A DNA stretch of 64,000 nt from Amoebophrya sp. A120 (GCA_905178155.1 CAJINV010000005.1:5917754-5981753); one strand, 5' to 3'. Positions 4,956 through 56,700 are shown, counted from the stretch's first letter. Translations and numbers: made by a program. Notes: a model not told the origin generated them from the sequence alone.

Positions 4956-7900
4956 TCACCGGCCGGAACCAGTGCCGGGGCAAGTAGAAGCATGGTCCTC
5001 GAGGTATCTTTCCAGCCTGTCGCGATCCGACGTCAAGTCGCGTTTTTCTTTTTCTGCGTCCTCAAGCTTCCAAAAAGCATCTAGCGCGCGCGCCTCTTCC
5101 TTGGAACAATCTTCCAGCGCCTTAATATCCACCGCACTCTGCACAACGGGCTGTAGAATTTGAGCAACACGCTCAGCGTCCGTCAGCCTTTGTTTTACTT
5201 TGGAAAGCCTCCTGTCCTTCAGCTTGCACTTGTGCGCTGCCAAACGCGATCCCCCCACGTTCCAGACCATAAGCTCCTTCCCAGTCGTACCGGCGCCCGT
5301 CTGCCCTTGTGGCACCCCCCCAAAATACTGCACATATCTGTCTTCGCGCTGCCGGGGGGTCCAAGGAACGACTGCGGCTGTCTGCTCTACGATTCCCCGC
5401 ACGCGTTCAGCTGCACGGCCGACGCCGCGCGACATCTGGCTCACATTCCACAGCTCCTCGTCGTTCGTCCGCCAAAGATTGGCCAGATCGTTGACGAAAT
5501 GCTGGCAATTGCGCCAGCATAGCCAATAACCCGATTTTTTTTTCTTTTTCTTTTTTTCGCTAAGCTGCCCATTAGCTTTAGGCTTAGCACCATATCCGAG
5601 CGCCTCCCCCAGTTGTTCCACCACCGACGCAATTTTCTTTAGGGAGACTCTGTGGCCGCCGCCTTCATCCTTGGGTATGTGCAAGTTCGTGGCGAGCAGC
5701 ACAAACGAACTCCAATCCACTTCGACCTCGCGCACGGCGTTTCCTACATCTTTCGCGAAACGGTCGACCTCATTTAGCAATAAACTTACCATTCCCTCAA
5801 AAGCCGTCGCTCGTTCCTTCTTCAGCCCCTCTTTGTCATCAGATGTCAGCTTCCACGACGCCGGCGACCAGCTTTCGAGCTTCTGCTTTGCAGTCTCGTA
5901 CTGTTCGGCATGCTCCTTGAGCACTTGTCTTCTGTTTTCGCTGAGTTCTGATAGAGTGTTGTCATCATCGGACACATGACCGAGAGCAATTTTACGATAG
6001 TTTGCGAGGACCTCGCCCGCCTTTTCGTAGACGTAGGGCTTGCATGTGGAAGACTCGAAAACGGCGATCTTCGGCGAATTCCACACCAGCTGAGGTCGAT
6101 CGACAATCCATCCGTCTGGTCCAAACTCGGCAACCACGACCTCCTCAAGGCGCTTCTCTGGCTCCGTAAGTGGTTCGGCGCCGGGAGCTCTGGCTGGGGT
6201 AAACGTAACGTAGAAATGCTCTATACCTAGACCCATTATACGACACATTTTGGCACGGATTTCCGTGATCGCGTCGGTGGAGATTTCCTGGTCCCACTCG
6301 TTCGTAAATGTGTTGCCCTTTCGCTGGCCGACGTCTCCTCCAGCAAAAAAGGCCGTGAGGTGTTGCCACACTGTTGGCGCCACGTCTACGACATCAACAC
6401 CCGGCGGTGGGTACTCGTCGAGAACCCTGTCGTGCACGGCATCGCGCTTCTCGTCTGTTGTTTTCACACTCTGGACCTGCGGGAGGCCGCCCGAGTTTGG
6501 ACTCAACAATGGCAACCGTGGCATTGTTGAGTCCACGCCCACGCCCAACGAGTTTTTCTGTGTAAAAGAGGGACCGCTCAGCTGCGACGATTCGTGTGTC
6601 GCAACATTTCCTTCTTCACCCATAGCGTAGTCCCCGAGACTACTTCCAGCAACTCCCGGCAGAGGGGCTCTCTCGTTCAATTGGGTTTGAGTTTTTTGTC
6701 GGTCTACTTCGGGTGCTTCTTGATGTGCTTCTGCTTTTTCTACTTGCATCTGTTCTCCTCCGACGCGTTCTTGCGTCTCACCTGCACCCAACCTTTCCCC
6801 AACGGGAATTCCTCTCCTGCCGGGATTCGTGTTTCTCTTTGTCTTTTCCGGCTCTTCTGAAGCAGGTTCTGCGTCATATCTTCCAGTGCCACTTGTTTCC
6901 GTTTTCGTTTGCAGCGTCACGCTGCCTGTTTGCCTCATTTGTCCTGCATCCAATTTCACAAGCTCAGTTTGTTCATCTTCAACACCGGTCTTACTTTCGA
7001 AGTGCGGATCAGCCTGAGCCTCATATGCAGTGCAAATGCGTCGTCGTCCATTTCCATCCTCATTATCTAGAAACGAAATTTGCAAATTAACAGGCCCGCC
7101 AAGAAGACGACGCCCGGTCAATGTTTTTTTCAGCTGCTCGACGTCCGTCTTGTACTTGCTTACTAGTAGTTTTTAAGAGCACGAGCTGTCATTTTATTTA
7201 CTTTTTTCGCGAGCGTGATCATCATGAGAGAGCAAAAAATAAAAAAAGAAGTTGTACTATAGTGCGGTCTGTGCCTGCTGCACCACATGCCAGCCTGACA
7301 ACAGTTTCCGTTCGACGAGGACCTGAAATTGACCCATAACAAAAATGCGCAACAAGTGAACTCGATTACGCCCCCAAAGCTGTAGTATCCACTTATCATC
7401 TGTAAAAGTAAGCTCGGACTGTGCAGCTACAATTGACGGCGTTTGGGATATTCTTTGGAGGTAGAGAAGTTCCACCTCCTCCTGCAGTAGTTGAACTAAA
7501 GGTATACGTCATATTTGCACTGCATACACGACAGCCCTCAAGGTGCGCGAGAGGTATGCCTTGGTCTTCAGGACGTGCTTTTTGGGTAGGGACATCTCCT
7601 CCCGTCAAAACCCCAGCGTCTGCTGCTTTCTCCACATCACGAGCTTGTCCTTGTCCATGTTGATCTTCGGAGGTTCCTTCGAGCTTGAGAAAGGACTGGT
7701 GGGAGTCGTCCTTTTTGTCGTCCGCTGGTAGTTGTTCCACAGGGGCTTCCACTCCGTCCGGGATCAGCTTCAACATGTTGTGTGGCGTAGGAAATTGTAA
7801 CGACGGCACTTCTTTTCCTATCCACTGCAAACGCGTCAACGGGTTCGGGGTCCCAACGAGCCGCTTGCTGACATTGCAAGCTCGTGAAGATGCTGGTATT

Positions 7901-9629
7901 TGTATATGGTATTATTAACCATGGATCAGGATAAGTCTGCGAAGACTTCTAATTGTCATCCCTCAAGAGGATGAGCGAAGGCTCTCCATGTTTTGCCCCG
8001 GGAAGCGAACGGGTATCAACATCTGTCATGCGGGATAAGCATCTTCAGGCTCGGGGTCGGGTATGAATAAGATGCGCATGACAAAGGATGTTCGCACATG
8101 GTTTACTCCCAGCTTAGAAGAAGACTAAAGGTTTGCAGTGGATATTCAGATTCGCCCCAACTGCACTTGTACTTCCGGCGACCGCAACATTGTCTGCTTG
8201 TTGTACTTGCAGAGCAGAGTGGTCAGCAGAGCCAGCCTGCCCGCCTTGCGCTCCCGCGTGGCTTTCCTGAGTCGGGATCAACTTCAGCATGTTGTGCGGC
8301 GTCGGAAATTGCAAAGAAGGTTTTTCCTGATCCTGAGCGGAACCTCCAGAACGCCCTCGTGTGAGCGTAGTTTTCGTTTCGTCATGATCCTCGTCTTCTT
8401 GTTGTACTGCTTGCAGAAATAAAGGCAGCTTTTTCCGCAGCGTGCTGTCGCGCTGAAGCTGCTCGAGTCGAGCATCTCCCTTCCGCAGGGAGGAAGATTC
8501 TTCCCAAGTATCGCATTGAAGACGCGGTCCTCCCCACATCAGAAAACAGAAGAGAGGAATACTGTGGCCCCCTTCTTGTCGCTACAAGAATAAAAGGAGT
8601 AGCAGGGCGGGTGCGGAATCGGAATCACACGCCACAAATATGGTGATTTGCGGATCATTCGGATTCGTGAAACGCAAGAATTATGCAGATCCAGATTCAT
8701 CATATCAAGATTAAAATGCTCAATTTTACGAATGGAAAAACGCAACTCTCACGAACTCATTTTTCTGTTCCAATCCTTCAAAAGTTGAGCGCTCAGTTTC
8801 CAATGTGATACCCTGGAGACAAACTCGCCAGCGACGAAGCCAGATCGTGCGCCTCTCCTGCCCACCCGTATTGTCTGGTAGAAGTTTCATCTGCGAAGCC
8901 CTTGGAAGCGGCCGTTGGAGCCATCTCGCTTGCGGGCTCCTCCTGCTCCGAGAGCAATCCCGCAGCCGCACCCGTCTGCAAAAAATCGGAATGCCCAAAT
9001 AACGCAGTTTGGCTGGTGTTCACATCGGGATCGCCATGATCCGAGTGGTCGCTTGTCGAGGATACGTGTGTGAAAGAAGCGAAAAACGCGGCGGCTGATT
9101 GTTCCACTCCGGAGCGGAGGGCGGTCCAGAGCTCTGTCGCAGTAACATTTGTCGTGCTGTTTTGGTCCTGTGTCCGGTTGTTCGGCGTGTAGTAGATTAC
9201 CGTCTCCGGGTCTTTCAGGAACAGCCACTCCGGCAGCGCGTCGAAGAAGCCAGTACTTCCACCGAACCCCTGTTCCATCAGATGGGACTGCTCATTGTGT
9301 AGTTCCAGGAACGAAGTTGAACTAGAACTGCTGCTCGAGGACGCCGCGTTCTGTTCCGCCTCCGCCACTGCGTCAACAGCATCGTTTTGGTCGTCATTTC
9401 CAACACCGGCCTCGTCTCCTGCTCCAACTGGAGGTGTTGTTGTGCCACCACCTCGTCCACCCCCCTGGGCGAATCCGGATGCGCCGAATGCCGCGCCGCC
9501 CGGATAATTCGAATTCCCGCTATAATTTTCCACCCGGCCGACCACGTCGCCCTTCTCGTCCAGCAATTCTAAAACGAGTTCGTTTGGCGCCAAAAATTTC
9601 GTCGCGTCCCGTTTCCAAGTTTTTCTCAC
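4956..9629 (-). CDS. Multi-exon protein with C-terminal PPPDE/LRAT-like permuted papain-fold peptidase domain (paralogue A)
   Basis: ORFs 8793..9629, 8114..8539, 7396..7839 and 4956..7121 fuse in frame after removing three introners. Motifs EHFYVTFTP...VVVAEF and YWLCWRNCQHFVNDL. 5' end unresolved (may extend to ~10000). Confidence 0.75.
7024..7526. mobile_element. Introner, 503 bp; reads GT..AG in the inferred splice register
   Basis: Perfect 14-bp IR tatgcagtgcaaat; degenerate flanks cctca/cacga; removing 508 nt matches the frame offset. Confidence 0.75.
7819..8144. mobile_element. Introner, homologous to 49847-50130
   Basis: Perfect 14-bp IR tatccactgcaaac; flanks tttcc/ttcag; removing 331 nt gives GANL|KEVPSLQF. 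Confidence 0.8.
8509..8810. mobile_element. Introner, same site as 1827-2117
   Basis: IR tatcgcattgaagac / gtttccaatgtgata; flanks ccaag/ccctg; removing 307 nt matches the frame offset. Confidence 0.75.
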
Positions 9630-12352: not shown

Positions 12353-15300
12353 TCACTTCAACGTAGTTGATGTCGTGCTGTCCTGCACAAACAACGACCC
12401 ACCTACCAGTGGACTGCTCCCTCGCTCGGACTCGAAAAACAGCGACATCCTTCGCTCGTACATTTTTTCCTTTTCGTCCTCGTAGTCCAATTCTGTAATC
12501 GCCGAATGGGTCTGCCAACACTCCGGAATGGAGTTGTCATCCTCTACAAGCTCGAAGGGAAACAAGACCACGGACGGCTCATAGTCTTCTCCTAGGTCGA
12601 CGTCGTTTTCAACTGCAATATCGCAGTTATTCTTCCTCGTTGTGGTCCGCCTTCCAGAAAATTCATATTCATGAAATTTCTCTCCTCCACCTTCTTGCCC
12701 CTGCTCATCATGTTCGGGATTATAGCTTTCGTTCGCAAATTGAACTTCCGAACTGTCCTCAATTTCCTCGAACTGAAAATCATCCTCAACCGGGGGGAGG
12801 TGGTCCAGTTCGTGGCCAGTAACGTCATCTTCGTCCTCGTTGTACTCGCCCCCGTCCCCGTGGAAGTTGTGTAGTTGACCCTCGTCCACCTCGTCACAAG
12901 GATCATGCTCTTCGTTTCGCTCGTGGTCTCCTGCTTCCTCGTAAAAATATTCCTCCTGGCTGAAAGAACATCTCCTGCGCATTGTCTGGTGAAACTGGTC
13001 CTGGTCCGCCACAATAATCGTATTTTCATAACCCGGAGGTGGGTCGTGTGGGTCCTGATCTAGCAGGCTGCTAGCTGGCCGGGAAGTACTAGCTGCTGCA
13101 GGTAGCGAGCGGCTTCTAGGCTCAGGTGTGATCATCATGTCATTTGTAGTAGTCGACATCCCGCCCCCGCCGGGAAAGGGCTGGTGCAGCAGCGTGCCGT
13201 AGTTCCTCCAGGTCTGCAGCGTGGCTTCCCGATGCTGGTCTGTATCATGTGTTGTATGATCAGCCTGGTGCATCACGCAATCTTCGATATCAGCGTCTAT
13301 GTCTTCGTTCTGGTTTATTCGGTGCTGAATGCTAATATTTTCAACCCTTCTCCGTGTCCGTTCCTCCTCGACGCTGTCTTGGATTTTGTTAAAGAGCACA
13401 TTCGTCGAGGTGTAGTGACGGGCGCGTGATGAAGTACAACTACGATTGATGTTCTGATCACGATCATCATGATCTTCCTCCTCGTCAAAAAACGCCCCAC
13501 TGCGTTCTTCGGCCTTTTGTGCTGCTCGGGGGAAATAAAAGTCGCGACCTACGAGGTGGTCGTCCTCCTCTTCTCTGCCGCTGCTGTTCCGCCACTGACC
13601 CAAATAGGGTTGGTTGTGGCTGTACTGGGTTTTCTTGTTTTCAATGAACTTATCCTGCCGAGGATCATGGGAAGAACGGTTGACAAGATCTTCACTCCTT
13701 GCTCGTCTGGCGTTGTAGTTGTACCGAGGCCCGCCTGTCCTCGTGGTGACACAAGCAGTACTTCCAGCCGCATTGATGTGCAACTGCGATGTTGCAGCTG
13801 CTGTTTCTGCTGCTGCAGCCGCGGCTCTCCGTCGTCTTGCGGCACGCCGGCCGCCCCTACCTTTGTTGCCGCCCTTGCCGCCTTTTGCTGCAGAAAAAGT
13901 AGCGGCCGTGTTGTTGTTCTTGTTCTTGCCAGCTGCATCGAAAGAACTCCGGCTGCTGGTATCCTTGTGATTTCTGGAACAGGAGGACGAATCGACACGA
14001 TAGCGATAAGTGGTGGAATATGCAATGCAAATATGTCTGGGTCTGGAAGAATGAAGCCTGTCATGCGAAATCTGGATCACGAGATGAAAATCTGTGTTGC
14101 ATGAACGCCAACAGTTACCCAGCTCTCGCTAGGCAAAAGGGGAATTTCTCATGCGGAAGCGGCATGGGGAAGGTCTTAAAGAATCTGTGATGCTTCTGCC
14201 TGCATTACAGACCATGAGTGTGGTCCGCGAGATGCATGACAAATCTCGCAACTTTCGAGACCGAGACATTTTTGCATTTGATATGGAAGTAGTTTTTCCA
14301 TTCGCCTTTTTCACACCAACCTTCGATAATTTCGAAGAGGAGCTTGTGCTACCGCTCCGGACAAAGAGATGAGCTCCTGCTGGTGCCTTCTTGCTGTAGT
14401 TCTTGTTTCTGTTTCCTCTCTTGTTCGTCCAAGAACTCCTTGACTGCTTGTTGTTCAACATCGTAGAAGTTGCTACAACAGTACTGCTTTTCCGGGTCTC
14501 GGCTGTGGTGCTGGAGAAACAAGAGGAGGAACGGTTATTGTAGTTCGCCATATTTGTATTGCTGGTTGGCACACCCGCATAATGTTGGTGGGTCTTGTTG
14601 TAAGAGTTGTGCTTCTTGTGACCACCTTGCTGTTCCCCACACGGAGTGCTAGTGCTGCGCTGCAGCATCACACCACCATTTGTTACGTGATACTCCTGTT
14701 GATCACGGTACTCATTTTCGCAAGAGCTTCTCCCATGGTTGTGCTCCTCCTCGTAAAAATAACTCGCAGGAGAACTACTTCTCTCCGACAAAGACTGCCA
14801 AGTTGACCTGCTGTTCGGAACTACTGGCACTACAGGAGGTGAGCTCCTACTCTTTTTCAGCCCCTGACTCTCCGTTTTGTAAAAAAAAGAGGACGACGAG
14901 GGTGCCCGGGTGGTGGCGGTCGTAGAGGAAGTTGCTCTTGTTGTCCTGGATTTTTTCTTCCCTGTTAGTTCTACATCACGTGGTTGATTTTCAACATGTT
15001 CCTCTTCTTGTCCTCCGGAACTGCAAGTCGTGCAGGGGTCGTGAGGAAGATTCGACATAGAAGAAGGAGTGTAACCCGCGACCATGTGCGCCGAGCAGTA
15101 AGAAGGAGGTGCACAACTTGTCGGATGAATAAAACCAACGTAAGGCAGTCCCGCTGGTGCAGGCATGACCATGGCCGGTGGCGGTAACAAATGCGATGCG
15201 CTGTGGAAGCTGGTTAGACGTGGGTCAACACAGGGGGTTTGGTGGTGGTAAACAGCTGGCATACAGCTGGCCGGGACTCCTGTGGCGGGGCAGGGTGGCA

Positions 15301-17800: not shown

Positions 17801-20800
17801 TCATGACCCCGTCGTAGTTCCAGCCCCCGCGGCAGCCGAACTTCCACCTCCCTGAGCTACGCCGGCCGCTGCAGCTGCACCTTCTCCTGTAGTTCCTGGG
17901 TTCGCGGCGAACATTGCAGGAGGAACACCACCAACAGCACCAGCCGGACCCGCCACACCGGCTCCTGCGGGCATCGGCATGTAGATGGTTTGGATGGTCT
18001 GTTGCCCCGTCATGGGATCGATCGTGGCAATCTGCTGTGGTACCAACATCATCGGTTGGGCGGCGCCGGGGGGCTGCATCAGCATGGGCTGGGCAGCGAA
18101 CGCCGGTTGTAGTTGTGGTTGCTGGTGCATCATCGGAAAATTCGGGACGGATGCGGATGGCGTCGTGCCTGGCTGCACTGGTTGCATGGGCATTTGCATC
18201 ATTGGTTGCTGTGGTTGCATCATCATCGGCTGCATCAGGGGTAGTTGTTGCGGCGCAAACATTGCACCTGTCTGCGGCTGTGCTGGCTGCTGCTGCTGTA
18301 TCCACAGTAAATTTCCTGTACACGTACAAATGCGGTCTCTGCATGGCAAAACTTGGCTTCGATCCTAGTTTAGCATAACAAGTTTCACACTCCAAATGCG
18401 GGAAATTTGTGATGCATCTTGTACATGTACGGGAAATTTGTAATTGTATTGCATATGCTGTACAGTCATGCTATTAACCACGTTCGCAAACGCGTTGAAA
18501 GTTGGAGCCTGTTGTAGAGGTTCTTGTCCTTCTTGCGCCGCAGGAGCTCCAGTTACAACTGAGCTTACTGCAGCCGCCGTTCCTGCTGCCGCACTGTCAT
18601 CTGCTGCGTTCGTACTATTCTGTTGCTCCGACGCAAGCTTGTCTCTGGTCTTCTTATACGGACCCCTGACATATGCGCTAGTTCTCGTGTATGACAGTCC
18701 ACTTGCAGCTTTTGCCTTCGCAGCCTTGGCTGGCTTCACCGAGACAAGTGCAGTACTAGATGAAGATGATGCTGCGGCAGGAGCCCCGCTAAGAGTACCT
18801 GTTTTGTTAGAGGAGGAGGTCGCGGCGGCGGTATTGGTAGTTCCTGCTACTTGTCCTCCACCTCGCTGACTCATCTTATTGCTCCTGCTAGCTGCCACAA
18901 ACCGCTCCTGAATCACCTTATCTCCCTCCATAATCCGCTCAATGTCCTCCCCCAACAGATTTCGTTTGCTCTCGCTGATCAAGACATTCGGGCCGAGAAA
19001 GTACTGCTTCTTCTTTATGCATTGCGAATATGTCTGGGTCTGGAAGGATGCGAGGTTTGCGCTTGCCATGCGCATTTTGCATGACTCCTGATGTCTGTGA
19101 TGCATGCCCTAGCGTCACAGATTTTGGGAGGGCTTCCTGATGCCTATACCGCATGAGAAATGTCCTCTCTCCGGGGGAAAAACTGGACCTCTTTTGCTGT
19201 TCATCATGCAATACAGATTTATTGCAGAATCCAAATCCAGCATCACAAGTTGCAGTCTTCCAGACTCAGACATATTTGCAGTGGATATTCTTCGGAATCA
19301 TGCGGTTCGGGAATTCGGAGAGGGCGGGCTTGGTTTTGATCTTGTTGTCCTCGGAGACAGGAGATACAGTGTCCTTGTTCGTGTTCCCCTTAGCTGACTT
19401 CATCATCTTTCGGCCAGAGGTGGTCGCGGCTCCTTCTGCTAGCAAAAGCGAAGCTGTTGTACTTTTTTTTTCTACTTTCGGATTCCCCTCCGTATCGTAG
19501 TCCGTCAGCATCTTCAGCTGATCTAAATCCGCCTGCGTTTTCCGTCCCTTGGACGCCCGCACGCGCTCCGCCCCGTTGCGGTCGAAGAGAAGCGGATTTT
19601 TCCTCCTCTTGAAAAGTTTTGGCTTGAACAGCTTGTACTTGGAAAAGAAATTTGGAGCTCCTGCGCTACCAGCTACTTTGGACGCCGATGCAGCTGCACC
19701 TGCTCCTGCTGTTCCTGCTGCGTCGTCGTCGTGGTCAGCATCTTGATCTTCATCCCCGTCGTGGTTCGCAGAAGTCGGCAGCTCACGTCGGCCATTGTAA
19801 AGTTTTTCCAGAATCGATTTGGTGATTTTGATTTTGTTCACCTTCGAAGTAGCTACCCCTCCCGGTCCACCTCCAAAACTCCCGTAGAAATTCTGTTTCG
19901 GCACGCAGAGTCCCACCTCCCGTTTCCATTTCGAAACCACCAGCGGCCGCTGTTTCTCGACGTGCAGGTTCAGCTCCTGAATACGCAATACACGCCGTTT
20001 CGTGTCGATGAGGTCCTGTTTGAAATCGTCCTTGAACGGGAGATCGTGGAAGAAAAGCGGGGTTGTGTACAGAAATTCGCTGGCCAGACGCTTTTTCCAA
20101 TTCGTGAGACCAGGAGTAGTTGAGCCTCCCCCGCCTGGCTGGATTAATATCTCGTCTTCGGAGTCGTTCGTCTTCTTGTCGTGCAACGAAGATGAACCTG
20201 CTCCGAAGTAGCTCCTCTGTTCCAACACCAATCCCAAGTCCCGACTTGCAAACAACTCCTCCATCGGCAGAATGGGCAACACGGCGTACAGGCGTAAAAC
20301 CGACCGCAGCCAGGGCAAGGCCGTGTCGAAATCGTGGCGGGGTAGGAACTCGCAGTTAGCGTAGTGATGGAAAGAGTGGTCAGCCGTGTCAGTCTGAGTG
20401 TTTAAGTTTAATATCATCGGAGGTGCCTGCACTGTCGCGAAGGGGCAGAAACGACGGTCGAAGAAGAAGTCGGGTCTGCTGGAGGAGCTGATGTTCGGTG
20501 TTGATGATTTACTTCTTGTAGTTCCCTTCTTTGCGCCGTCCTTTGCGTTCTTTTCCTCTATAATTTCCTCAGTCCCAGTTGTATAGCTGGTGTTCTCCTC
20601 AACCAATCCGTAGCAGGGGTCAATCACGTATCGTGCAAAAAAAGTTGTGTTTTGAAGTGTAACAAATTTGGGCATCATATTCATAATGCAGTGAAGACAA
20701 CATCAACACATCAAGCAAGAGTAGACAACTACGAAGCACCAAAACTTGTACTTGTACAACTGCAGAAGTAGACCCTGCTGCACATTAGAGAAAATCTGTC

Positions 20801-23800
20801 ATGCGTTACTGAAGCCCTCAAATAAATCGTTAACGCTTAAAAATACACTTTTTCTGTTTGATACCACATGCAGCCCCTCCGCGGAGGAAACGGTGGACTC
20901 AAAGGTTCGGGCGTACGGATGTTGTAGTGCAGTCGATGAAACCGCTCCTGATGACTTTGATTTATTTCCACACCTCTTCACCTTCTTCTCCAGATTTTCG
21001 AAAAACGTGGACGCGCTGAGCCGCTGGCCGTGAAAGTCGCCGATGGATTCCATGGGAACGCGGAAGTACATCGAGAAAACGCCGTAGGTGGTCTTCTTTT
21101 TGGTTGCATCTGAAGGAGCTTTCGCCTTACTACACGAGGAACTTGATGTTGTACTAGGAGCGGTATACACCCCCTGTGGGTAAAACCACACCTCCGCGGG
21201 GTCGTGGCGGTCCAGGATTTTCGCAACGGTGTCTACAAGAATCTTCGGGACGTGGTATCAAATGCAAAAGTGTCTGGGTCTGGAATGTTGATGCCGGGTT
21301 TGTCATGCATATTTTGCATGACCCAGGATGTCTGTAATGCATGACCCAGCATGGCAGATTTTTAGAGGGCTTCCTGATGCCTATTCCGCATGACAAATGC
21401 CCTCCCCGCGTAGCACAAACTAGACTCCCCTTGCTGATCATGCAATACAGATTTTTTGAGAGTCCAAAGTTAGCATCACAAGCTCCAACCTTCCAGACCC
21501 AGACATTTTTGCATTTGATACGTGAAACTTCTCCACGAATTTCTCGTGCAGCTTCCACCCGTGGGTCTTCACCGCGATAACCTTCTTCTTGTTTGTCGAC
21601 ACATTTGCTGACGAAGAGGCCGCAGGCTTGAGAAGAAGACTTGTATTTGAGGACGCTGCACCCGGGACGAGATGATTCTTTACCGAATCCAAATCGAATT
21701 CGTCCCTCTCGCTGCTGCCGATTTTCACCACAGTTCTATTTCCCGCAATGTAGTTGTTCTGTGATTTCTGACCCGCCGTATTTGATCCCGCCGCAGCCCG
21801 TTTTTTCTTCGTAGTTGTCCCTGCCGCGGCGGAGCTACTGGAAGAAGATGAAGCTCCCCCACCACGAGCGCTTTTTCCACCAGGTTCGAATCCTGCTTGA
21901 TCCTGTTCTTCAGGACCACTACTTCTATCGCCCACCACCACCACATCGTCAAAGCACGTGAGAATCTTCCGCTTCTCAAAGTTTTCCTTGTCGATTTCCT
22001 CAAAATCCTTCAGCAATTTCTCGTCCACATTCGCTTCATTGACCGCAACGCCGGTCGAGTCGAACAGAGCGCGTTCTGGGATCAGAAATCTGTGCAATTT
22101 CATCGAAAAAGCAGTGGAGAAATCATCCTCGAGGACGGCTGGATTTTCAATCATCGTCGCGGTACTAGTAGTTCCAGTAGAACTTGACGACGGTTGTACA
22201 TCTACTCCTGCCCTAGACAAGAAATCTTCCCCCACTTCCACAACTTTCCCCCGTGCATAATCCGGGACGATGTTCAGTCTTAGCAAACGCCAAAACGCGT
22301 GGTTCGCGCGGTTTTGGTGCAGGAAGGCACGGAGAATGGTTTGCTGCTCAAAGTAGGTGGTGAGCAGGTTCTTGTGCAGGTGCTCGATCTTCTTCGGGTA
22401 GGCAAATTTGTCCTGGTCGGGATCGGTGTGGTAGTTCGGGCAGGGATTGAGCATCTCATCCAGTTTGAAGCGGGACACTTCCCGCCAAAATCGGTGTGCG
22501 TTATACATTGCAAAAGTATCGTACTAGTGTGGGTCGCGTGACAAATTAGCTCAGTATGAAGAGAAATGGAGTCTGTCATGCTGATTTGCCTTGAGATGGA
22601 GGTTTGTAATGCATGACTGCGATCACTACGAGTACGATACTTTCGCATTGGATACGCGTATAGCTGCTGCGATTTCAGATTTGGCGAAAACTGCTGCTTG
22701 TCGTTCGTACCGGTCTGATGCCCAACATCTTCCGTAGTTCTTGTGTCATCAAAATCATACACCACGGGGCGGTAGGGATAGGGTTTTGGAAGGCGGAAGT
22801 TTTTTGATGACGACGACGACGACGACGTAGAAGTACTAGCTGCACTCGAACTCGTGCTATCACGGTAGGAAACTTTTGGAAAGTATCGGAGCGGCTGGGA
22901 AGTGGACTCTGCCAGTGTAGTTGTTGTACTGGAGGTGGAAGATGCACCAGCTACTGCGCTTGCTACCTTGTTCTTTGAAGTAGAAGCTGAAGCAGTGGTC
23001 GCTCCGGACGATGAACTCGTCGCGGAAAGTAAAACAGCGTTTCGAAAAATCCGCTCCATCTCCCCTGCCTCGTACGGCATGGGCTGGTGCGCAAATCTGG
23101 AATCAATGTATTCGTCGGAAGTCGGCTGGAGTGGGGGCGACTGGGGCAGCTCTACCGACTTTTTCCGGGCGGTGGTGGAGGACTTGTTTTTTGAGTCCAC
23201 CTTGTCTTTTGTTGAGTTCTTTTTTCCTGCTGCAGGCCCTGCTGCTGCTGCTGCAGCTCCCATTTTGTTCATTTTGTTTTTGCTTCCTGTTTTGGTGTCT
23301 GCAGGGGCATCTTTTTCTTTATTCTGTTTTTTCCCGGATTTACTGGTCTGCTCCTCTTTCAACTTTTTTTTCTTGACTGCTGTTCCAGCATTTTTGTCCT
23401 GTGCAGCTGCCGGGCTCTTTGCATCGTCATGACCTTCTTCATTATCGGCCGAAGCACGACGATCATTCCCGGAGAGACCAACTCTTTCCCCCCGCCAGAC
23501 CCCGTCGCCAAACCGTTCTTCTAAATACTCCTTCTGTTGTTTCCGCATTTTTTTCTCCGTTTTCTTGTCCAACAACATTAGTGCGACCTGGAGCTGATAC
23601 AGCAGCTCTTCCGCCTGCTCGGTTTCCTCTTCGTCGTAATAGTCGTGGGGATCGGGGTTGGCAGTAGTTGTATTTGAGGTGCTCGCTTTCATATCATCTT
23701 TTGCATTTGCGCCGGCTTGTTGAAATAGAAATTGCTTGCTCTCTTTTTCATCCCCCCGACGGTCTTCCACCGTTTGCTCCACGGAGCCCTCCACTTCCTT

Positions 23801-32645: not shown

Positions 32646-33769
32646 GGTGGTGGTCTTCGCAGCTAGTACAGGTTGATGCTCTAGTGGTCTCGATGTTCCG
32701 GCGAGGAGAGCAACAAAATCAGCGACAACTGCTCGCGAATGTGAGGAGAACGGGCTCCTCTTGCAGCTGCACTGCGGGTGCTCTAAATTCTATCCTCGTC
32801 GACGTGCTGCTAGATAACTGTAATTCCGTCTTCAAAAAAAACCGTTCTACTCGTGGGGATCGGCGGAGCTGCGATGTTGCGCTACCAGAAGACCAGTTGA
32901 TGTGAGCCGTTGTCGTTGTACACAACTCAACTACTCTTTCCGGAAAGGGATGCAAATATCGCACTCGGGGGCGATGTGGTTTGAGTGGCTTTTTTTTGTT
33001 GAATTTGGATTCAGAAGGTATCTTTCATCCACCCCATTCCGCCTTTCGCTTTCCTACGATTGTTTGCTGAGAGGCTGACTTGTGTTTCCAATTTGCTATC
33101 GTCTTGCTCAGATTCAGCGTTCACGGAGGTAACTGCAATAGAGCAGGAGCTGAAGGGCAGGTGCTGCAATTGAAGTCGCTAGAAGAAGTCTTCAAGGTGC
33201 TGTCGTCGATATTACACCACTGTCGTGCGGAGCTAAGCGTTAGTATGGTCGTCGCGTTCAGGACCTGCAGCTGCATCAGACCGCAAGGACTATTCTTGCG
33301 GCGGCGTTTCAAAAAATTCGTGCAGAAACAAGTAGTCTAGTGCAAGAAAGTCGAGCTCCGGGTGGTCAATGTTGTGTTGATCATGCGCGGTCGTCCCGGC
33401 TGCAGCAGCTGCTCCTCTTAGAGATTTTTACGTCGTCCGCTACCAAAAGCCCCGACAAGCAGAGGCTGGTGGTGCGGGCTTCTAGCACCTGACTGAGGCC
33501 ACCTAGTAGCTGCAACACGACAAGAAAGATCAGGGTGGCCGCCCTGGTCGCTGCCCTGGTCACTACAGGTGGCAGCTGTAGTCCGTGCACCAGTCATACA
33601 TCATTGTTTGAGCTCAGACACAGTTGCAATCCTTATTCCCTGTACAATTTCAACCCGAAGCTATTTCTACATAATTTTGGCGAGGTGATGAACAATAACC
33701 AGAAAAAAATTGATGCGTGCCAGCTGATCATCACTTTTTTAGCAATATCTTCCGAGTGTGTTCTCGTAG

Positions 33770-36700
33770 TTATAATTCACTCTGAAAGAGCGGGTAGCGG
33801 ACGAGGGGAATCGTGCAAAAATGGTATAGTGTGCAATCTTCTAAATAGTATACAACACATTTTTGAAAATCATCCGTGCGGGAGTATCGTGGTTTCGTGA
33901 GAAGGCCGAAAAAGGCCTGATAGAACGGCCCTGTTATTGCAGAATCGAAATCGAGATCGACACGAAGAATCTGTATGATAGAGCTGCATCTTCGGCAGGA
34001 GCTCTTCGTTAATATTTTCAAAACGACCCTCGAGCATTGCTCTTACCCTCTTGATGGCATCTTCAAATTGGTACCGTTATAATTGTCGAGTGACACTACA
34101 ATGTAATAGACGTGCAGTTGTTTCTCACCGTAGTTGTCTCCTCTTGATTTCATCGCAGAAAAATCAAAATGGCAGATCGGACCGACAGAAATCGAAAACC
34201 GATGTTGCTGAAAATGTTCTGAAGTTGAAGTAGCTCGTCGTGATACTGCAGTACCGTACTAAAACGACCCGTGTGCGAGCGGGACAGGAAAGAGAGTTGT
34301 TTTTCTTGCGAAAATCATTTTCGTTGTTCCGTGTAGTGTTTTCGTCGAAAAAGTAGCATGCTCGCGCTGCTGGTAGTCTTCAACAGATTTGTGTCCTGTG
34401 GTCAACGAGCAAGAACACATTAGAAGTGTCATCAGGATCATCTAATTCATCTGGTGCAGATTCGTTTTTATTTTTTGCACTTGTTTTGTTTGAAGACATT
34501 TTGCCTTGCAAGAAAGCTTTTTTGATCTAAGTACCTTGTGATGTCGTGTTGAACTCAATGATGCCACATCGCAGAGGACGGAGGTTCCAGTGGTTCATCT
34601 ATGAAAGCCTCCCAATTTGATGCTAGTAACGAGGCTGGTCGTCACGACGAGTACACAAGAAGCAATTTTCACGTCTCCGAGTCGCTTTCGGCGTCCGAGT
34701 CTCCCCGTACGGCAAGTGGTATGGCTCCGTGCAAGATTTTGCCCGCGAACACCTAGAGTTGAAGAAATTTGTGTCATGCAGAAACACGACATCAAAGTTG
34801 ACTTTGCACATTCTCATGATTCCTGTAGCTCGTGCATGACATAAAGAAGATCAAAGATCAAGATGATCAAGCATTACACTACTGAAGATGATGATGAACA
34901 AAGAAACTAAAGAATCGACTTTTATACCACCCTGACATCGTAGTCTCGACATTCCAGTGCTGGCGGCACTTTGATGCAAAGCTTCTTGCCCTTTTTTATC
35001 CCTGACGGCTTCAAGGTCAACTGTGTACAGGAAATGCAGGGACAAAAATCTTCTTGTTCCAGTTCAGATGTTCATGTTTTATTTTTCGGTCGATTCTTGT
35101 TCAGGCGAATAATTTAGTTTAACGTACTACTCTTGCAAAATAAGTCGCATTACACCCACGACCAGCGACCAGGTTCATCTGCAAAAACAAAAGCTTAACT
35201 CAAGTAAGATCAAGAAAAGATTTTTCCAACCATAACTGAGCTTCCGCCAACCAGAAGTATCTCCACTTGGTTCCACCTAAAAAGCGTGTTGATCAAAGAG
35301 ATGAAGCTTTTTGTATCGCAAAGTCACAATCATGGCTGGATCAAAAATACCTATGAGCATCGTCAGACACCACAGGTACAAAGAACATGAGTAGGAAAAA
35401 AAAAAACCAAAAAAGGTAATGCTCACATAGTAGAGGACGACCAGCTTATTTCGCTTACCATTGCTCTGGTATCTCCTTCCGCAGACCTATCACCAAAGCT
35501 ATCCAACGAAAAAGAGGAAGTTTAGTCAAGCATAGCTGAGCTTTACAGAAGTGCATCGTATCGGACGATTTGCATCACAGTTTTCGGTTTCTTTGTTCAA
35601 AAGCAATCGCACTTACGAGCCCTAATAAAGGCTTGTGGGTACTCAACCTTCAGACAAACTTCAACTTTTATCGTGCAATTGCTCTTGTCTCAAAATTGCA
35701 AATCAGCCCCTGCGTGACTCATACAATGATTTTCACCATCTGATACCCGTTCCACCCGTGGCTGTCGGCACCTCTTGTGGCTTTATGTAGAGCAGTATGC
35801 AATACAAATAATTTCCCGCATATGCAAAAGATGCATCACAACTAAATTTCGCCAATTTTTTGGAGTGCGACACTTGTCATGATAACTACGATCGAAGGCA
35901 ATCTTTATTTTTGTCATGCAGAAAGCTCATTTGTACTTGGACATGTACGGGAAATTTACTGCGGATAAGCAGCCGCTGTCCGTCGGAACTTGAGATGGAC
36001 TTATTCAGCAGCCCGCCACCGGCGTTCATGCTACCCAGACTGGTAGTATCAACGGGGAAAAACGCTAGCTCTATTGATGCTTGATTTTGCATGACGATGG
36101 TTTGCGTCTTCTTTCAATCTTTTCGTTCTTTTGCTTTCGGCATGACAAACTTGAGTCATATGCTAGCTTTTTTCCCTTCACGATAGGCAGCGCTCGGAGT
36201 TCCTGGTTGTGGTGCGCCACCTGGCGGCCCACCTCCGAACTGCCCACCACCGACCGACCCGCTTCTTTGCGTGCTTGCCCGTGACCAGATGCTAGGAACC
36301 GAACCGACGTCAGACCCACACTCCCAAGACCATCCGAAAATGTCGGAAAAGGGTGTGCTGCATGCACTGCAAAAGGCTTCTTTCGTATCGTCTACGCAAG
36401 TACTACAGCACTACAACAACTACAGATAGAGTGACTGATACTGGTTCCAACAACTACCGCATGACCAAACAATAAATGGCTTTGTGTTACTCCTCGCTCC
36501 TAAGTACTGCAAGTCGGTGAAATGTAAAAGACGCTTTCATTGCAGTGCGTATCTTGTTATGAACTGCAAAAGTATCGTACTCGTATAAATGCATTACAAA
36601 TTTTCTCAGCATGAGAAATAAAATTTGTAATGCTGATTTGCCTTGACAAAGAAATTTGTAATGCAAGACCTGCATTTATACGAGTACGATGCTTTTGCAT

Positions 36701-38040
36701 TTCGTACTTGTTTTGGTTTATCGGGTTCATCTGCAGGTGCCATCACACCAAAAAGTGTTAACGTTGACGGAATTTGTAATGCAGGAGCGCATCACAAAAC
36801 ATGGCAAAATTTGTAAATGCATAGCATGCATATTGGGCTACGCTTGTGATGCATGACTGCAATCTGTGAAAACCGTTAACGTTAACACTTTTTCCTGTGA
36901 TAGGTGCGACTGGAGTGGTACCCCTTCTTCTTCGGGGTTTATGCCGGGCAGGGTTGAAGACCCACCGAGAGCCCCAAAGTCGATACTTGGGCTATCACGT
37001 TGAAAAAAAAAGCTCACCCTTCAAATCGAAGCCCAATTTGTGTTGCGGTGTCAGTTACAACTGATATTAGTAGTTGTCGTTACGCGTAAATTTTCCATAC
37101 GGAGGTAAGGATAGCTGACGGTGTTGGGGCTTTGAATGCAAAATGGAGAACAGAGGTATATGTCCCTTTGACACCAATGTTGCCTTGATGCACGACAGGC
37201 TACGACCACCTTGTGACAACTAGAAATGCTGGCTTCGAGTGTTGTGGGTTGTTTTTTTTTTTTTCCTTCTCATACCCGCCCCGCCCCGGGTAAGCCATTG
37301 ATTGGTGCGCGGTAATTGCTATGCATTGCACAAGTATCGTATTCGTAGTATTGCAATACAAATTAGCTCAGCATGACTACAAATGGAATTTCTCACGCTG
37401 ATTTAGCTTAAAAGAGAAATTTGTCTTGCGAGTACGATACTTTTGCACAGGATAATGGCGGGTGTCTGCAGTTTTGGTGTTTGCTGTACCGAGTTCGCCG
37501 AGAACTGCACGGGGTTTGCCACATCTGTGCGTGTCAGCGGAGAGGCGAGAGGAAGATTTGGCGCGTCTGGTGCGGATTGGTGTTGCATGTTGTGTTATGG
37601 AATGTAAAAATGTCCGGGTCCTCTGGAAGATTCTGACACTTGTCATGCACGTTTTGCATGAGCCCTGATGTCTGTGATGCATGCCCGAGCATCACAGATT
37701 TTTCGAGAGCTTCTTGCTCTTGATGCCTATTCCGCATGAAAAATGCCCTCTCCGCGTAGCAAAAATTGCATTCCTTTTGGTACTCATGCAATACAGATTT
37801 TTCTAGAATCCAAATGCAGCATCACAAGTTGCATTCTTCCAGACCCAGATATTTTTACATTTGATACGTGTCCGGCACTTCCGGGAGTTGCTGCTCCACC
37901 GCCCCGGTGCTCCTCGTGCTCGGAGATGGTCAGCATCGCGACTACCAGAACAATCTTGGTGCCCGCAACTACAGCCTGCAGCTATGTGGGCTGCGTTCCC
38001 GTACTAGCAAGCCGGTCGTCCGATTTGTTCTTGTAGTATA
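33770..38040 (-). CDS. Highly fragmented hypothetical gene(s); exon chain only partly resolved
   Basis: Short coding-like segments separated by five introners and GT-AG introns (e.g. 34753-34927); joins such as SAGH|NMQHQS and GQRLL|YIKPQEV are open. Confidence 0.45.
35796..35967. mobile_element. Introner family C, inverted relative to 18299-18455
   Basis: Perfect TSD agcag; the reverse complement aligns along the whole length of 18299-18455. Confidence 0.85.
36558..36706. mobile_element. Introner family A
   Basis: IR tgcaaaag(t/c)atcgtactcgtataaatgca; perfect TSD cttgt. Confidence 0.9.
36741..36902. mobile_element. Introner family D
   Basis: IR (c/t)atcaca..aaaaagtgttaacgtt; perfect TSD ggtgc. 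Confidence 0.85.
37320..37454. mobile_element. Introner family A
   Basis: Family A IR; flanks attgc/atggc. Confidence 0.85.
37596..37866. mobile_element. Introner family B
   Basis: Homologous to 19016-19287 and 21256-21520; flanks tgtgt/cgtgt. Confidence 0.9.
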
Positions 38041-53787: not shown

Positions 53788-56700
53788 CTAGTAGCGTCCC
53801 CGCCCGCTGACGTGATTTTGGTTCATTGTCGGGGTGGAAAAGTCATTCATGTTGACCAGGGTGCCGGCCTGGTTGTTTAACTGGTTGTATTGCGACGTTT
53901 GCGCCGGATAATTCGGGTGGTGTTGCTGCAATTTTTCCCCCGTGTAGAGGTTTCTCGTCGGAAGTCCCGGATTTTTCGCTCCCACAGTCCGGGCGGAGGA
54001 GGAAGAAGAACCTCCTAGTCCTCCCGATGCTCTAGTACTTCCACCACCCGCCTGGTAAAGATTTGAGGGAGGCAGTGGTGGCGTCATGGTTAGACTTGGG
54101 TTCAGATTTGCGTAGTTGATGTAGTCCGCGGAGGTCGTACTCAATTTATTTGCAGATCCCGCTGCCGCTGGAAGGGGCGGAGGGAGGGTTGGCGTCATTC
54201 GTAGCGCTTGATGCGGCTCAATATCGACGTGTAGTTCCTGTCGCGATGATGAAGAACCTCTTTCTTCGTAGAAATTGCCGCCAACACCGTCGCTAGACCT
54301 CCGCGCGGAAGATGAAGTTAGAGCTGCATTGCCATTGGAGGTCGCGTTCGCGGCTGCAGTGTAGCTCCTCGCCGAGTTCTTCAGTTGCTGGTTGTTCAGC
54401 GCGAGGGACCGGTTGAAATTCATCAGCGCGCGGCTGATGTTGGTCTCCGCGATTTCAATTTTTTTCACACACTTCTCGATTTCGGATCTACAGCCCTCCA
54501 CCTGGCTGGACAGTTGTTGGTGCTGGGTAACCAGGAGCAGCGGCCATTTAATCTTTGGAGGCGCAGCAGAAGAGCCGCCGAATTCTTGAAGTAAGTGGCC
54601 GTCCTGTTGAAGCTGCTGTTCTTGTTCCTGTACTCCTACATGTACTGTTGACAACAATTCCTCATCCTCGAGTAAAGGCGCTATGGCGTGCTGCGGAAAC
54701 AAAGCCTCGGCTTCTCCACCGCCAGCTGGGGTTTTTTGGCTGCTGGAGGAGGACGTCATAGACACACTCCGGATCTGAATGCTCGAGGTTGTAGTTACTG
54801 CCGCAGGTGGCATGAGCTCCTGGGGCCTATTCCGAGTTGAAGTCGCAGCGGATTTTTGATCTCCAAGAACGACTTGCTCGCCATTCCTCTTTGACATTGC
54901 TCCTCTTCTGTTCTTCGCATCGACCGGCTCTTCACCCTTCTCTTCTTCCCCCTCCGACCTCCCAGCAGCCTCCTGTGCTCCACCACTAGCTGCACCTGCG
55001 CGCGTTGCTGCATCACCGACAATGAGATGACTAGACGCTGCTGGACCCACGAAATCTTCACTATTGAAGTTGCAAAGCGTGAAAAACTTCACGTCCAGGC
55101 AATCCAACAACTCCTTGATTTTCGCAAAAGCGACCTCCTCGTCCCGATTGATCATTTGTAGCAGCGAGTGGCTCATATGAACTGCAAAAGTATCGTACTC
55201 GTATAAATGCATTACAAATTTCCTCAGCATGAGAAATAAAATGTGTAATGCGGATTTACCTTAACACAGGGATTTGTAATGCATGATTGCAATTCGAGTA
55301 CGATATTTTTGCACAGGATAATTCACCCGTCGCAGCAACTCCGCTAACTTTTCATTAAACGAGTCCTCGGTCTGTTTTATCCGCAGCTGCGTTTTCTGCT
55401 CGACGGAAGCCTGGAACTGCGCCAATGCTGCCTTGGTGCAGATGAAGTCGTCCTCCTGTTCGGAAGGACGGACCGCTGGAGTAGATGAAGTTGTGGCCGG
55501 TCGTGGTGCACCAGAGGGTGGAGCGAATGTCGTCGCGCTAGCTGAAGATGACGAGGAGGAGGAACCACCAGCAGCTGTAGGAGCTGCCAATGCTACTGCG
55601 TCCTCGAGTTTTGCTATTCCTCGAAAATTTGCCACCCTCAACATCCATTTTTTGCATGACAAAAGCAGAATTGGAATTCAATTATCCCCTCCCCCGTGTT
55701 TTGCATGACAAACTGCATGGGGATGGTCATCAATTTTCAGGGAATATTGGCGATCCGTCGGCTGTATTTCGTGTCCAGCATGGCCACAAGCTTATTGAAC
55801 ATGCTGTCGGCAGGGATCATGGTAGTGGGATTGTGACCACCTCCACCTCCGGGTTGCTGGCCACTGCTGGAGGAAGTGGAAGAAGACGATGCAGATGCAG
55901 CTCCGTTACTTGCTAGATCCTGCAGCTGTTCAGCGGAGTTACTTATGCACTTCAAAAACTTTTATCCGAATCCGCCGGTGATGTATGGCCTTGCAAGAAC
56001 AACTCGAAAGCTATTTTTACATACACGACATAAAAAGCTTCGTCTACTTGCCATCAATTCACTTGGAGGTGAAGCCCGTTGTGAATTCCGTTGTGCTGTC
56101 AACATGCTGGAGTTGGTCGCAGGAATAAAGTTTGTGATAAACAAGAGCAGCTTATGTAATAATGATCGATCTCGTGAAGTAGATCATCGTGCTTGTTATT
56201 CTAATCCGGTGTGATCGTCGTTTTTGCAAATGCTTTTCACCACACGGCACGCAGCGGGAGAGAAAAGAAGTAATGCTCCGGATAATTTTCCTCAGTTGCA
56301 CAAGCGGTTCGTCCTCGTATTTGTTTTCCAACTTTTGCAGCTTCTGTTCCAGAAACTGCAGCCGTGACTCGAGTTGCAGTGAGTAATCGTTCAGTTTCAG
56401 AAATCACAAGGGAAAATTTTGTTGTGTCAATCGCATGCGTAGTTTTTTTTTTCTGTCCATCAACATAGCCAAGCGCTGCTCGTGCTTCACGCGCACGCCC
56501 AGCAAGAACACGACATGCTGCTTCCTAGTCCTCTTTAGTCATGCACACTTGACACAATCTCTTTATTTTCCTTCGATATCGAGTTTGCCCGCTCCATGTG
56601 CTCCGCCACGAGAAGGATTTCCTGTGAATTTGTATTTCTTGCTCCTGCTACTTAGCACGATGTTAATATCCCAGAAACAATAAAAACAGCTTGTAGAACC

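What the first reader, a model, noticed from the sequence alone, without database searches (positions are those of the whole stretch)
7019..55325. Inferred fixed splice register (1 nt before, 4 nt after the hairpin) and drift towards GT-AG
Seen, in transcript orientation: at 40593 the TSD copies are TGTGA/TGTGC, and the empty paralogue (Cys-Ala) needs base 5 from the downstream copy. At 44773 they are TCGCA/TCGTG, and the paralogue (Leu-Ala) needs base 4 from the upstream copy. At 31942, taking base 1 from the downstream copy would create TGA. Together these place the cut between TSD bases 4 and 5, so intron = N-TAT...ATA-NNNN. In that register three mismatched TSDs (20629, 22502, 37596) have G in the upstream copy, creating a GTAT donor. 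The 55176 element has a terminal AG, and 7024-7526 reads fully GT..AG. Inference from few sites: these elements are progressively converting into canonical introns.
Basis: partly seen in the sequence, partly recalled or inferred. Interest (0 to 1): 0.85.

Follow-up and report, generated by a model that had tools for sequence, protein, structure and literature searches.

The report
Fixed cut rule for hairpin introns
In the marine parasite Amoebophrya, known transposon-like hairpin introns are cut from the RNA at one fixed position (1 base before and 4 bases after the hairpin) whatever letters lie there, which gives an exact rule for boundaries reported as variable and points to a likely relaxed spliceosome, while the proposed drift towards standard GT-AG ends is not seen.

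Summary
The window is Amoebophrya sp. A120 and the elements are its published TAT...ATA introners (Farhat 2021). The register is real: in 14 RNA-contig junctions and 15 gene-model junctions the cut after duplication base 4 is never excluded, while every other cut is excluded by several; intron = N-TAT...ATA-NNNN. The paper left these borders 'variable/unknown', though its Table S4 fits the rule. The drift is not supported: among 230 oriented elements of a related assembly, G at +1 is 30% (background 31%), GT..AG 6 of 230, G gained only in the intron copy 4 versus 8 times, no trend with hairpin decay; that sample is young-biased and has no RNA. Intron +2 U and -7 A are better kept than their pairing partners, and two abutting elements leave a 1-base exon. 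I favour a spliceosome with relaxed ends (about 55%) over a Euglena-like separate machine (30%). One clue survives for conversion by another route: 7 of 8 GT-AG introns here carry the elements' internal repeat. The scan noted similar hairpin introns in other genomes.

The parts
7020..7527 (-). Element intron (hairpin 7024-7526), reads GT..AG; the only such case among 37 elements
   Evidence: P0002 allows cuts 3-5
7815..8145 (-). Element intron (7819-8144), AT..AA; same site as 49847 in the paralogue
   Evidence: P0002 allows cuts 2-5
8505..8811 (-). Element intron (8509-8810), GT..TG
   Evidence: P0002 allows cuts 3-5
18295..18456 (-). Element intron (18299-18455), perfect duplication
   Evidence: P0001 lacks element + 5 bases
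19012..19288 (-). Element intron (19016-19287), perfect duplication
   Evidence: P0001
20625..20864 (-). Element intron (20629-20863), GT..TG
   Evidence: P0001 excludes cut 5
21252..21521 (-). Element intron (21256-21520), GT..AC
   Evidence: P0001
22498..22655 (-). Element intron (22502-22654), GT..GC; base-5 difference is silent
   Evidence: P0001
30866..31183 (-). Element intron (30870-31182), perfect duplication
   Evidence: RNA joint 30864-31183
31218..31502 (-). Element intron (31222-31501)
   Evidence: RNA joint, cuts 3-5
31938..32309 (-). Element intron (31942-32308), TT..TG
   Evidence: RNA piece begins at 32310; other side inferred from a 63-base record offset; only cut 4 fits
35029..35235 (-). 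Element intron (35033-35234), T-TAT...ATT-TCCT
   Evidence: RNA joint 35028-35236 with no slide; only cut 4; the ATT end was assigned knowing the joint
35496..35746 (-). Element intron (35500-35745), G-TAT...ATA-GCTT; duplication decayed to 1 of 5
   Evidence: RNA joint 35495-35747 with no slide; only cut 4
35792..35968 (-). Element intron (35796-35967)
   Evidence: RNA joint
36043..36186 (-). Element intron (36047-36185), CT..AC (reads GT..AG on the other strand)
   Evidence: RNA joint, cuts 3-5
36357..36552 (-). Element intron (36361-36551), downstream of the 1-base exon
   Evidence: RNA skip of 350 = 196 + 154
36553..36553 (-). Inferred 1-base exon (G) between two abutting element introns
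   Evidence: RNA joint 36356-36707 keeps this base; also recovered by the RNA-blind parse
36554..36707 (-). Element intron (36558-36706), GT..AA
36737..36903 (-). Element intron (36741-36902), CT..AC
   Evidence: RNA joint
36989..37275 (-). Element (36993-37274), GT..CC; removal opens the frame
   Evidence: sequence and frame only
37316..37455 (-). Element intron (37320-37454)
   Evidence: RNA joint, cuts 3-7
37592..37867 (-). Element intron (37596-37866), GT..AC
   Evidence: RNA joint excludes cut 5
40589..40847 (-). Element intron (40593-40846), AT..TG
   Evidence: RNA pieces 40588|40848 and P0005 exclude cut 5
42284..42804 (-). Decayed element intron (42288-42803), AT..AA; an AG 3 bases downstream is not used
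   Evidence: 19-base record gap and P0005, cuts 4-5
42823..43163 (-). Element intron (42827-43162), GT..AC
   Evidence: RNA piece begins at 43164; excludes cut 5
44769..45177 (-). Element intron (44773-45176), AT..GT
   Evidence: RNA piece ends at 44768, P0005 gives length 409; only cut 4
49843..50131 (-). Element intron (49847-50130)
   Evidence: P0004, cuts 2-5
50315..50636 (-). Element intron (50319-50635)
   Evidence: P0004
55172..55321 (-). Element intron (55176-55320), TT..AG
   Evidence: P0003, cuts 4-5; folds as a hairpin, z -5.9
55611..55747 (-). Element intron (55615-55746)
   Evidence: P0003
55940..56285 (-). Decayed element intron (55944-56284)
   Evidence: P0003, cuts 3-4
56398..56579 (-). 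Element intron (56402-56578), 3' arm ends ATT
   Evidence: P0003, cuts 3-5
57159..57447 (-). Element intron (57163-57446), duplication fully decayed
   Evidence: P0003, cuts 4-5
1220..1459 (-). Element (1224-1458), splicing untested
   Evidence: sequence only
1823..2118 (-). Element (1827-2117), same site as 8509 in a paralogue; splicing untested
   Evidence: sequence only
14015..14284 (-). Element (14019-14283), splicing untested
   Evidence: sequence only
   Evidence: sequence only
   Evidence: sequence only
30159..30367 (-). Canonical GT-AG intron, GTAT donor, no exact copy of the element repeat
   Evidence: RNA joint
30580..30682 (-). Canonical intron, GTAT donor, one element repeat
31651..31874 (-). 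Canonical intron, GTAC donor, one element repeat
34753..34927 (-). Canonical intron, GTAT donor, three element repeats
35277..35458 (-). Canonical intron, GTAA donor, one element repeat
56622..56781 (-). Canonical intron, GTAG donor, one element repeat
   Evidence: P0003
56983..57094 (-). Canonical intron, GTAT donor, two element repeats and an element-like 3' arm at 57033
   Evidence: P0003
57516..57692 (-). Canonical intron, GTAT donor, two element repeats
   Evidence: P0003

Best explanation
These Amoebophrya A120 hairpin elements, likely non-autonomous DNA transposons, sit between 5-base duplications and are removed from the RNA at a fixed register, one base before the opening TAT and four bases after the closing ATA, likely by the ordinary spliceosome with relaxed end rules. 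Shown: element + 5 bases is removed, the cut is after duplication base 4, it does not depend on the two copies still matching, and the letters at +1, -2 and -1 are free. Inferred mechanism: the predicted terminal stem holds the two ends together in place of U1 (reported undetected in A120); the element's TAT serves as intron bases +2 to +4, matching this organism's own GTA(T/C) donors; the first A of the closing ATA (position -7) would be the branch adenosine, and the 3' cut would be set by distance from it, so no AG is needed. Because one whole duplication is removed, any insertion in either orientation restores the protein, so there is little pressure to gain GT or AG; mismatches between the copies are neutral decay.
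For: Register: cut 4 excluded by 0 of 14 RNA junctions (cut 3 by 5, cut 5 by 7, cuts 0-2 by 8) and by 0 of 15 protein-model junctions. The same RNA contig lacks GT-AG introns and an element, and DNA-like runs X5/X6 hold all sampled words of 39400-45000. All 9 commonest A120 non-canonical end pairs in Farhat Table S4 have T at +2. Free ends. Donor likeness: 8 of 8 canonical introns start GTA, 6 of 8 GTAY; snRNP27 was not detected in A120 and its loss goes with +4 U donors in yeasts (abstract). Strand asymmetry although elements enter in both orientations: changes at +4 outnumber changes at its partner -7 by 10 to 2 in 263 locus elements (p 0.04) and 4 to 0 in the window; changes at +2 are rarer than at its partner -5, 1 to 3 and 0 to 5. 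Predicted end pairing in most elements and not in canonical introns. A120 keeps nearly all spliceosomal proteins and U2, U4, U5, U6.
Against: No lariat, circle or inhibitor data. A spliceosome normally needs G at +1 and AG at the end (recalled); neither is favoured here, even weakly, once codon position is controlled (AG 14 observed, 10.6 expected of 138, p 0.26). The donor is predicted to be buried in the stem. The +2/-7 asymmetry was noticed in the window first, is modest in the independent loci (only the -7 half reaches p 0.04), and a few locus elements do vary at +2, +3 or -7. No excess of G-U over A-C mismatches in stem positions 4-15 (89 vs 103). A 1-base exon and Euglena's separate system fit a non-spliceosomal machine as well. 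Several spliced elements have weak predicted end pairing (18299, 35500, 55944).
Confidence: 0.55

Rival explanations
1. Same fixed register, but a separate, non-spliceosomal machine (endonuclease plus ligase, or a specialised complex) measures 1 and 4 bases from the base of the stem, as proposed for Euglena non-conventional introns.
For: Ends are indifferent to G and AG; an AG 3 bases past the 42288 end is ignored; 1-base exon at 36553; Euglena uses fixed spacers N3 and N5-6 around paired motifs, with circles reported.
Against: +2 U and -7 A are kept better than pairing alone predicts; TAT matches the organism's canonical +2 to +4; no candidate enzyme is known to me.
Confidence: 0.3
2. One reading: after insertion the intron copies of the duplication progressively gain G at +1 and AG at the end, turning elements into canonical introns.
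For: Window: G only in the intron copy 6 vs 3, two intron-only AG, one full GT..AG. Farhat report repeats and inverted repeats in 15% of A120 canonical introns and canonical ends at 24.8% of strain-specific positions. The most decayed class has G in 14 of 35.
Against: Related loci: G +1 69 of 230 (background 30.9%, p 0.83); GT..AG 6 of 230 (p 0.66); intron-only vs exon-only G 4 vs 8, and 10 vs 9 in a second detection; AG 1 vs 1 and 2 vs 2; no rank correlation with hairpin quality (p 0.88, 0.24). Aligners can slide a joint inside the duplication, and 2 of 14 element joints here read GT..AG on the wrong strand, which would inflate published canonical counts (inference).
Confidence: 0.1
3. Conversion by a different route (compatible with the best explanation): the few elements that have GT..AG by chance, or whose 3' end shifts to a nearby AG, stop needing the stem, lose their arms and survive as canonical introns.
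For: The element's internal repeat GCAT[GTC]AC, counted on both strands, has 8.2 copies per kb in 8 canonical introns (7 carry it; 11 copies vs 0.5 in shuffles, 0 of 2000 shuffles reach it), 8.1 in elements, 0.46 in exons, 0.14 in other non-coding DNA; 7 sense and 4 antisense copies, symmetric as in elements; intron 56983-57094 holds an element-like 3' arm 46 bases before its AG.
Against: Only 8 introns; no terminal stem or clear duplication left; the repeat could be a general intron signal, or later insertions into old introns; my RNA-blind predictor of canonical introns failed (1 of 8 exact), so this could not be tested in the loci.
Confidence: 0.3
4. The elements are excised from DNA, or the joints are assembly artefacts.
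For: X1 and X2 are only guessed to be RNA and are one sample; many joints are flagged 'between: not known'.
Against: The same contigs lack GT-AG introns; every element joint is exactly element + 5; DNA-like runs hold the elements; Farhat validated such introns by RNA-seq.
Confidence: 0.02

Closest known systems
Amoebophrya A120 introner elements (Farhat et al. 2021, PMC7789003)
   Same: These are those elements: same organism, TAT + 7 bases + AAA inverted repeats, 3-5 base direct repeats, non-canonical ends.
   Different: The paper calls the splice sites variable relative to the hairpin and the border unknown (Fig. 3 legend), inverted repeats '1-5 nucleotides' from the sites (Fig. S23 legend). 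Here: 5-base duplication, one fixed 1+4 register, +2/-7 asymmetry. I saw legends, not the figures.
Euglena non-conventional introns (PMC12501133, PMC4770533, PMC6221363)
   Same: Paired ends, fixed spacer between stem and cut, longer 3' spacer, probable MITE origin, coexistence with GT-AG introns; 'intermediate' GT ends judged not to show kinship with canonical introns.
   Different: Signature N3-CDG...CHG-N5-6|purine versus N-TAY...ATA-N4 with no purine rule seen; different lineage; Euglena introns are reported to leave as circles, untested here.
Fritillaria borealis and Polarella glacialis transposon-derived introns (as described in review PMC11282704)
   Same: Terminal inverted repeats, target duplications, non-canonical ends, ascribed to an adapted U2 spliceosome.
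   Different: They keep preferred end dinucleotides (AG-AC/AG-AT; GC-AG); here +1, -2 and -1 are free.
IS3EU/GingerRoot DNA transposons (PMC10045372)
   Same: TA..TA termini.
   Different: Usually 6-base duplications, here 5; no transposase was sought or found.

Membership tests
Amoebophrya A120 introner elements | Occurs in Amoebophrya A120 | tested here: met
   Three window proteins are 100% identical to records named A120
Amoebophrya A120 introner elements | Inverted repeat starting TAT, seven looser bases, then AAA | tested here: met
Amoebophrya A120 introner elements | 3-5 base direct repeat at the exon-intron borders | tested here: met
   5 bases; 238 of 343 perfect
Amoebophrya A120 introner elements | Repeated families | tested here: met
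   67-88% alike copies in the window, 78-91% alike in other contigs
Amoebophrya A120 introner elements | Removed from mRNA with non-canonical ends | tested here: met
U2 spliceosomal introns | GT (or GC) start and AG end | tested here: not met
   1 of 37 in the window, 6 of 230 in loci
U2 spliceosomal introns | U at +2, A at +3 | tested here: met
   36 of 36 window elements; 262 and 259 of 263 locus elements; also the transposon end, so not diagnostic alone
U2 spliceosomal introns | Branch adenosine and lariat | tested here: inconclusive
   -7 A conserved beyond its partner; the GCATGAC repeat is strand-symmetric and not a branch signal; no lariat data
U2 spliceosomal introns | Dependence on U2/U5/U6 snRNPs | not testable with these tools
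   needs experiment
Euglenid non-conventional introns | Paired CDG/CHG at +4..+6 and -8..-6, N3 and N5-6 spacers | tested here: not met
   pairing starts at +2/-5 with TAT/ATA
Euglenid non-conventional introns | Stem joining the intron ends at a fixed spacing | tested here: met
   register shown, stem predicted
Euglenid non-conventional introns | Excision as full-length circles | not testable with these tools
   contigs cannot show it
IS3EU/GingerRoot transposons | TA..TA termini with 6-base duplication | tested here: not met
   termini fit, duplication is 5
IS3EU/GingerRoot transposons | Cognate DDD/E transposase | not tested
   no genome held

The most novel reading that the evidence does not exclude
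Amoebophrya A120 runs a U1-less spliceosome that reads a transposon end as a complete intron code: TAT as donor bases +2 to +4, the paired ATA as branch site with the 3' cut counted six bases on, and no G or AG needed; it splices across a 1-base exon, and many of the genome's GT-AG introns are worn-down copies of the same transposons.
Probability: 0.25. Interest if true: 0.88.

Novelty: new variant of a known kind. Interest (0 to 1): 0.62.

Why it matters
How A120 removes its non-canonical introns (65% of 66,565 RNA-validated introns, Farhat Table S4) is an open question stated in that paper. A fixed 1+4 rule turns 'highly variable splice motifs' into one motif plus free bases, gives exact boundaries for annotation, and names the bases to test (+2 U, -7 A, spacer lengths). 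It is a second lineage, after euglenozoans, where a fixed spacer from a stem sets the cut. The lack of GT-AG drift says such introns can persist without becoming canonical. If the spliceosome does this, it splices without G+1 or AG, which would surprise specialists.

Tried and rejected
No whole genome is held, so no genome-wide A120 test. RNA lay covered only 26850-46800; it showed 15 of 29 joints and 16 of 741 pieces; the 2026 raw RNA runs X8 and X9 do not cover the genes; no RNA lay exists for 7024, 20629, 22502 or 55176, which rest on protein models. No run was on record as RNA holder. Viral contigs: 0 matches to the element end. Rfam: 0 matches. GCATGAC as branch point: rejected, 25 plus and 23 minus copies, symmetric spacing. 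AG favoured at insertion: 20 of 165 perfect duplications at bases 3-4 vs 6-9 at other positions (Fisher p 0.002) but not after codon-position control (p 0.26). Stem extension by one pair (+1 with -4): 6 vs 0 in the window, 18 vs 11 in loci (p 0.26), not replicated. AT-ward drift as an independent register test: no consistent pattern. +1/-1 association p 0.003 was not pursued; both are neighbouring codon bases. RNA-blind prediction of canonical introns: unreliable. P0006 does not map to the window. Pfam names none of P0001-P0003.


Full report
Source and elements. Three exon-sized queries each found one protein, 100% identical and named Amoebophrya sp. A120 by NCBI. The genes lie on the minus strand. 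I curated 37 elements of 112-516 bases bounded by TAT/TAC and ATA/ATG/ATT inverted repeats. Farhat et al. 2021 (PMC7789003; I read the abstract, found passages, sections 11, 12, 16, 32, supplement part 3 and supplement search hits; figures are not held) describe exactly this: inverted repeats starting TAT, seven looser bases and AAA, with 3-5 base direct repeats. So the elements are known. Their Fig. [quoted passage not shown]

Register from RNA. I laid four runs on 26850-46800. X1 and X2 (one sample, contigs, RNA by guess) cover the genes; X8 and X9 do not. The tool showed 15 of 29 joints: 5 GT-AG introns, 9 single elements and one double. The pieces table gave both sides of 40593 and one side plus record offsets for 31942, 42288, 42827 and 44773. 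In all 14 single-element cases the skip equals element + 5. Calling j the number of duplication bases taken from the upstream copy, j=4 is excluded by 0 of 14, j=3 by 5, j=5 by 7, j=0-2 by 8; four allow only j=4, two of them (35028-35236, 35495-35747) shown whole with no slide; chance of a common fit about 1e-4. At 35500 the two copies match at 1 of 5 bases, so the cut does not rely on the repeat. The joint 36356-36707 skips 350 = 196 + 154 bases, two abutting elements each cut in register around a 1-base exon at 36553; a single intron with no 5' spacer gives the same mRNA and cannot be excluded.

Register from protein models. P0001-P0005 test 15 further elements at codon level: j=4 excluded by 0, j=3 by 2, j=5 by 2, j=0-1 by 8. 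These are annotations built from transcripts and may share data with X1/X2, so they are not fully independent. All nine commonest A120 non-canonical end pairs in Table S4 have T second, as N-TAT requires.

Drift test. A pattern for one element family found 137 loci in contigs of one metagenome assembly (391 kb with overlaps; the scan stopped at 25 of 64 parts). They match the window only in element DNA, have no RNA, and are not shown to be A120; I assume the register there. I found 343 distinct elements without using the duplication and oriented 230 with a coding model (113 dropped for weak calls; 36 of 36 right on the window, all minus-strand; 118 of 123 neighbours agree). G at +1: 69 of 230 against 30.9% in flanks; AG end 23 of 230 against 7.4% (p 0.13); both 6 of 230. 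Among 52 partly mismatched duplications G was only in the intron copy 4 times and only in the exon copy 8 times; AG 1 and 1. No correlation with hairpin quality. A second parse of 70 of the 80 long loci (238 elements, overlapping set) gave 10 vs 9 and 2 vs 2. A raw AG excess at bases 3-4 vanished with codon control. In the window the counts are 6 vs 3 and 2 vs 2; three of those six G differences are silent, three are not, and three are CG/CA pairs. Limit: 72% of the oriented elements have perfect duplications, so very old elements are under-sampled. Published numbers that could favour drift (15% of canonical introns with repeats; 24.8% canonical at strain-specific positions) are open to sliding and wrong-strand calls: two element joints here read GT..AG on the opposite strand.

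Mechanism. Most element introns are predicted to pair their ends and the canonical ones are not. Elements enter in both orientations, so DNA-level forces should treat the two arms alike, yet +4 varies more than its partner -7 (10 vs 2 in 263 locus elements, 4 vs 0 in the window) and -5 more than +2 (3 vs 1; 5 vs 0). The idea came from the window; only the -7 half is significant in the loci alone (p 0.04). All 8 canonical donors start GTA, 6 GTAY; snRNP27 was not detected in A120 and its loss goes with +4 U donors (PMC10581693, abstract only); U1 was not detected. From recall, not from a call: +2 U is central to spliceosomal catalysis, group II introns branch at an A 7-8 bases from the end, and some protists fix the branch-to-acceptor distance. 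I therefore favour a relaxed spliceosome with -7 A as branch (0.55) over a Euglena-like machine (0.3). No step of the chemistry is shown.

A surviving clue for conversion. The elements' internal repeat GCAT[GTC]AC is as dense in the 8 supported GT-AG introns as in elements and nearly absent elsewhere. This fits descent of canonical introns from old elements by survival of rare GT-AG cases or a shifted acceptor, not by stepwise drift; a shared intron signal is the alternative.

Literature. Ten searches; those on Amoebophrya introns listed no paper whose passages I read that states a fixed A120 register. Read: PMC12130899, PMC12005148, PMC11453091, PMC10045372 (passages); PMC11282704 (passages, section 6); PMC12501133 (abstract, opening, discussion); PMC4770533, PMC12621601, PMC6221363 (abstracts). 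Roy et al. 2023 and Henriet et al. 2019 were seen only as cited in reviews, and Farhat's Figs 3, S19-S25 and the datasets of PMC12130899 were not seen; any could contain the rule.

Verdict. Observation confirmed; register supported; drift not supported; elements known, rule new as far as I could read. Interest 0.62.

Noticed in passing
window 36357-36707: Two abutting hairpin introns separated by an inferred 1-base exon (36553); the RNA keeps that base.
   Followed up: partly
window 30159-35458 and 56622-57692 (8 GT-AG introns): Canonical introns carry the elements' internal repeat GCAT[GTC]AC at element density; 5 of 8 start GTAT.
   Followed up: partly
window 24981-26837: Long GC-rich inverted repeat, arms of about 700 bases, 82% complementary; not studied.
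   Followed up: no
window 4959-9278, 39366-45419, 47624-51159: Three paralogous genes (P0002, P0005, P0004) with internal SLQFPTP repeats; P0004 and P0005 have weak PPPDE peptidase (PF05903) hits below the cut-off; they differ in which elements they carry, and 7819/49847 share one.
   Followed up: partly
window 7024-7526: The GT..AG element holds a further element-like end at 7394, perhaps a nested insertion.
   Followed up: no
window 42804-42822: 18-19 base exon between two element introns; a nearby AG at the 42288 end is not used.
   Followed up: yes
window 58631-62836: Intronless 1401-codon ORF with a DEAD-box helicase hit (PF00270, E 1.6e-7).
   Followed up: no
window 28979-32400 (minus): Spliced frame of 423 codons ends in a Cys/His pattern that looks like a RING finger after hydrophobic stretches (label from recall, not searched).
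   Followed up: no
window 3989-4330: Short inverted and tandem repeats in non-coding DNA.
   Followed up: no
window 37850: Element family 37596 is covered by very deep contigs in X1/X2 (summed depth about 13,000), probably many transcribed family copies.
   Followed up: no
Farhat Table S4: All nine commonest A25 non-canonical ends start TT, matching its TTA inverted-repeat start: A25 may have its own fixed register with no 5' spacer.
   Followed up: no
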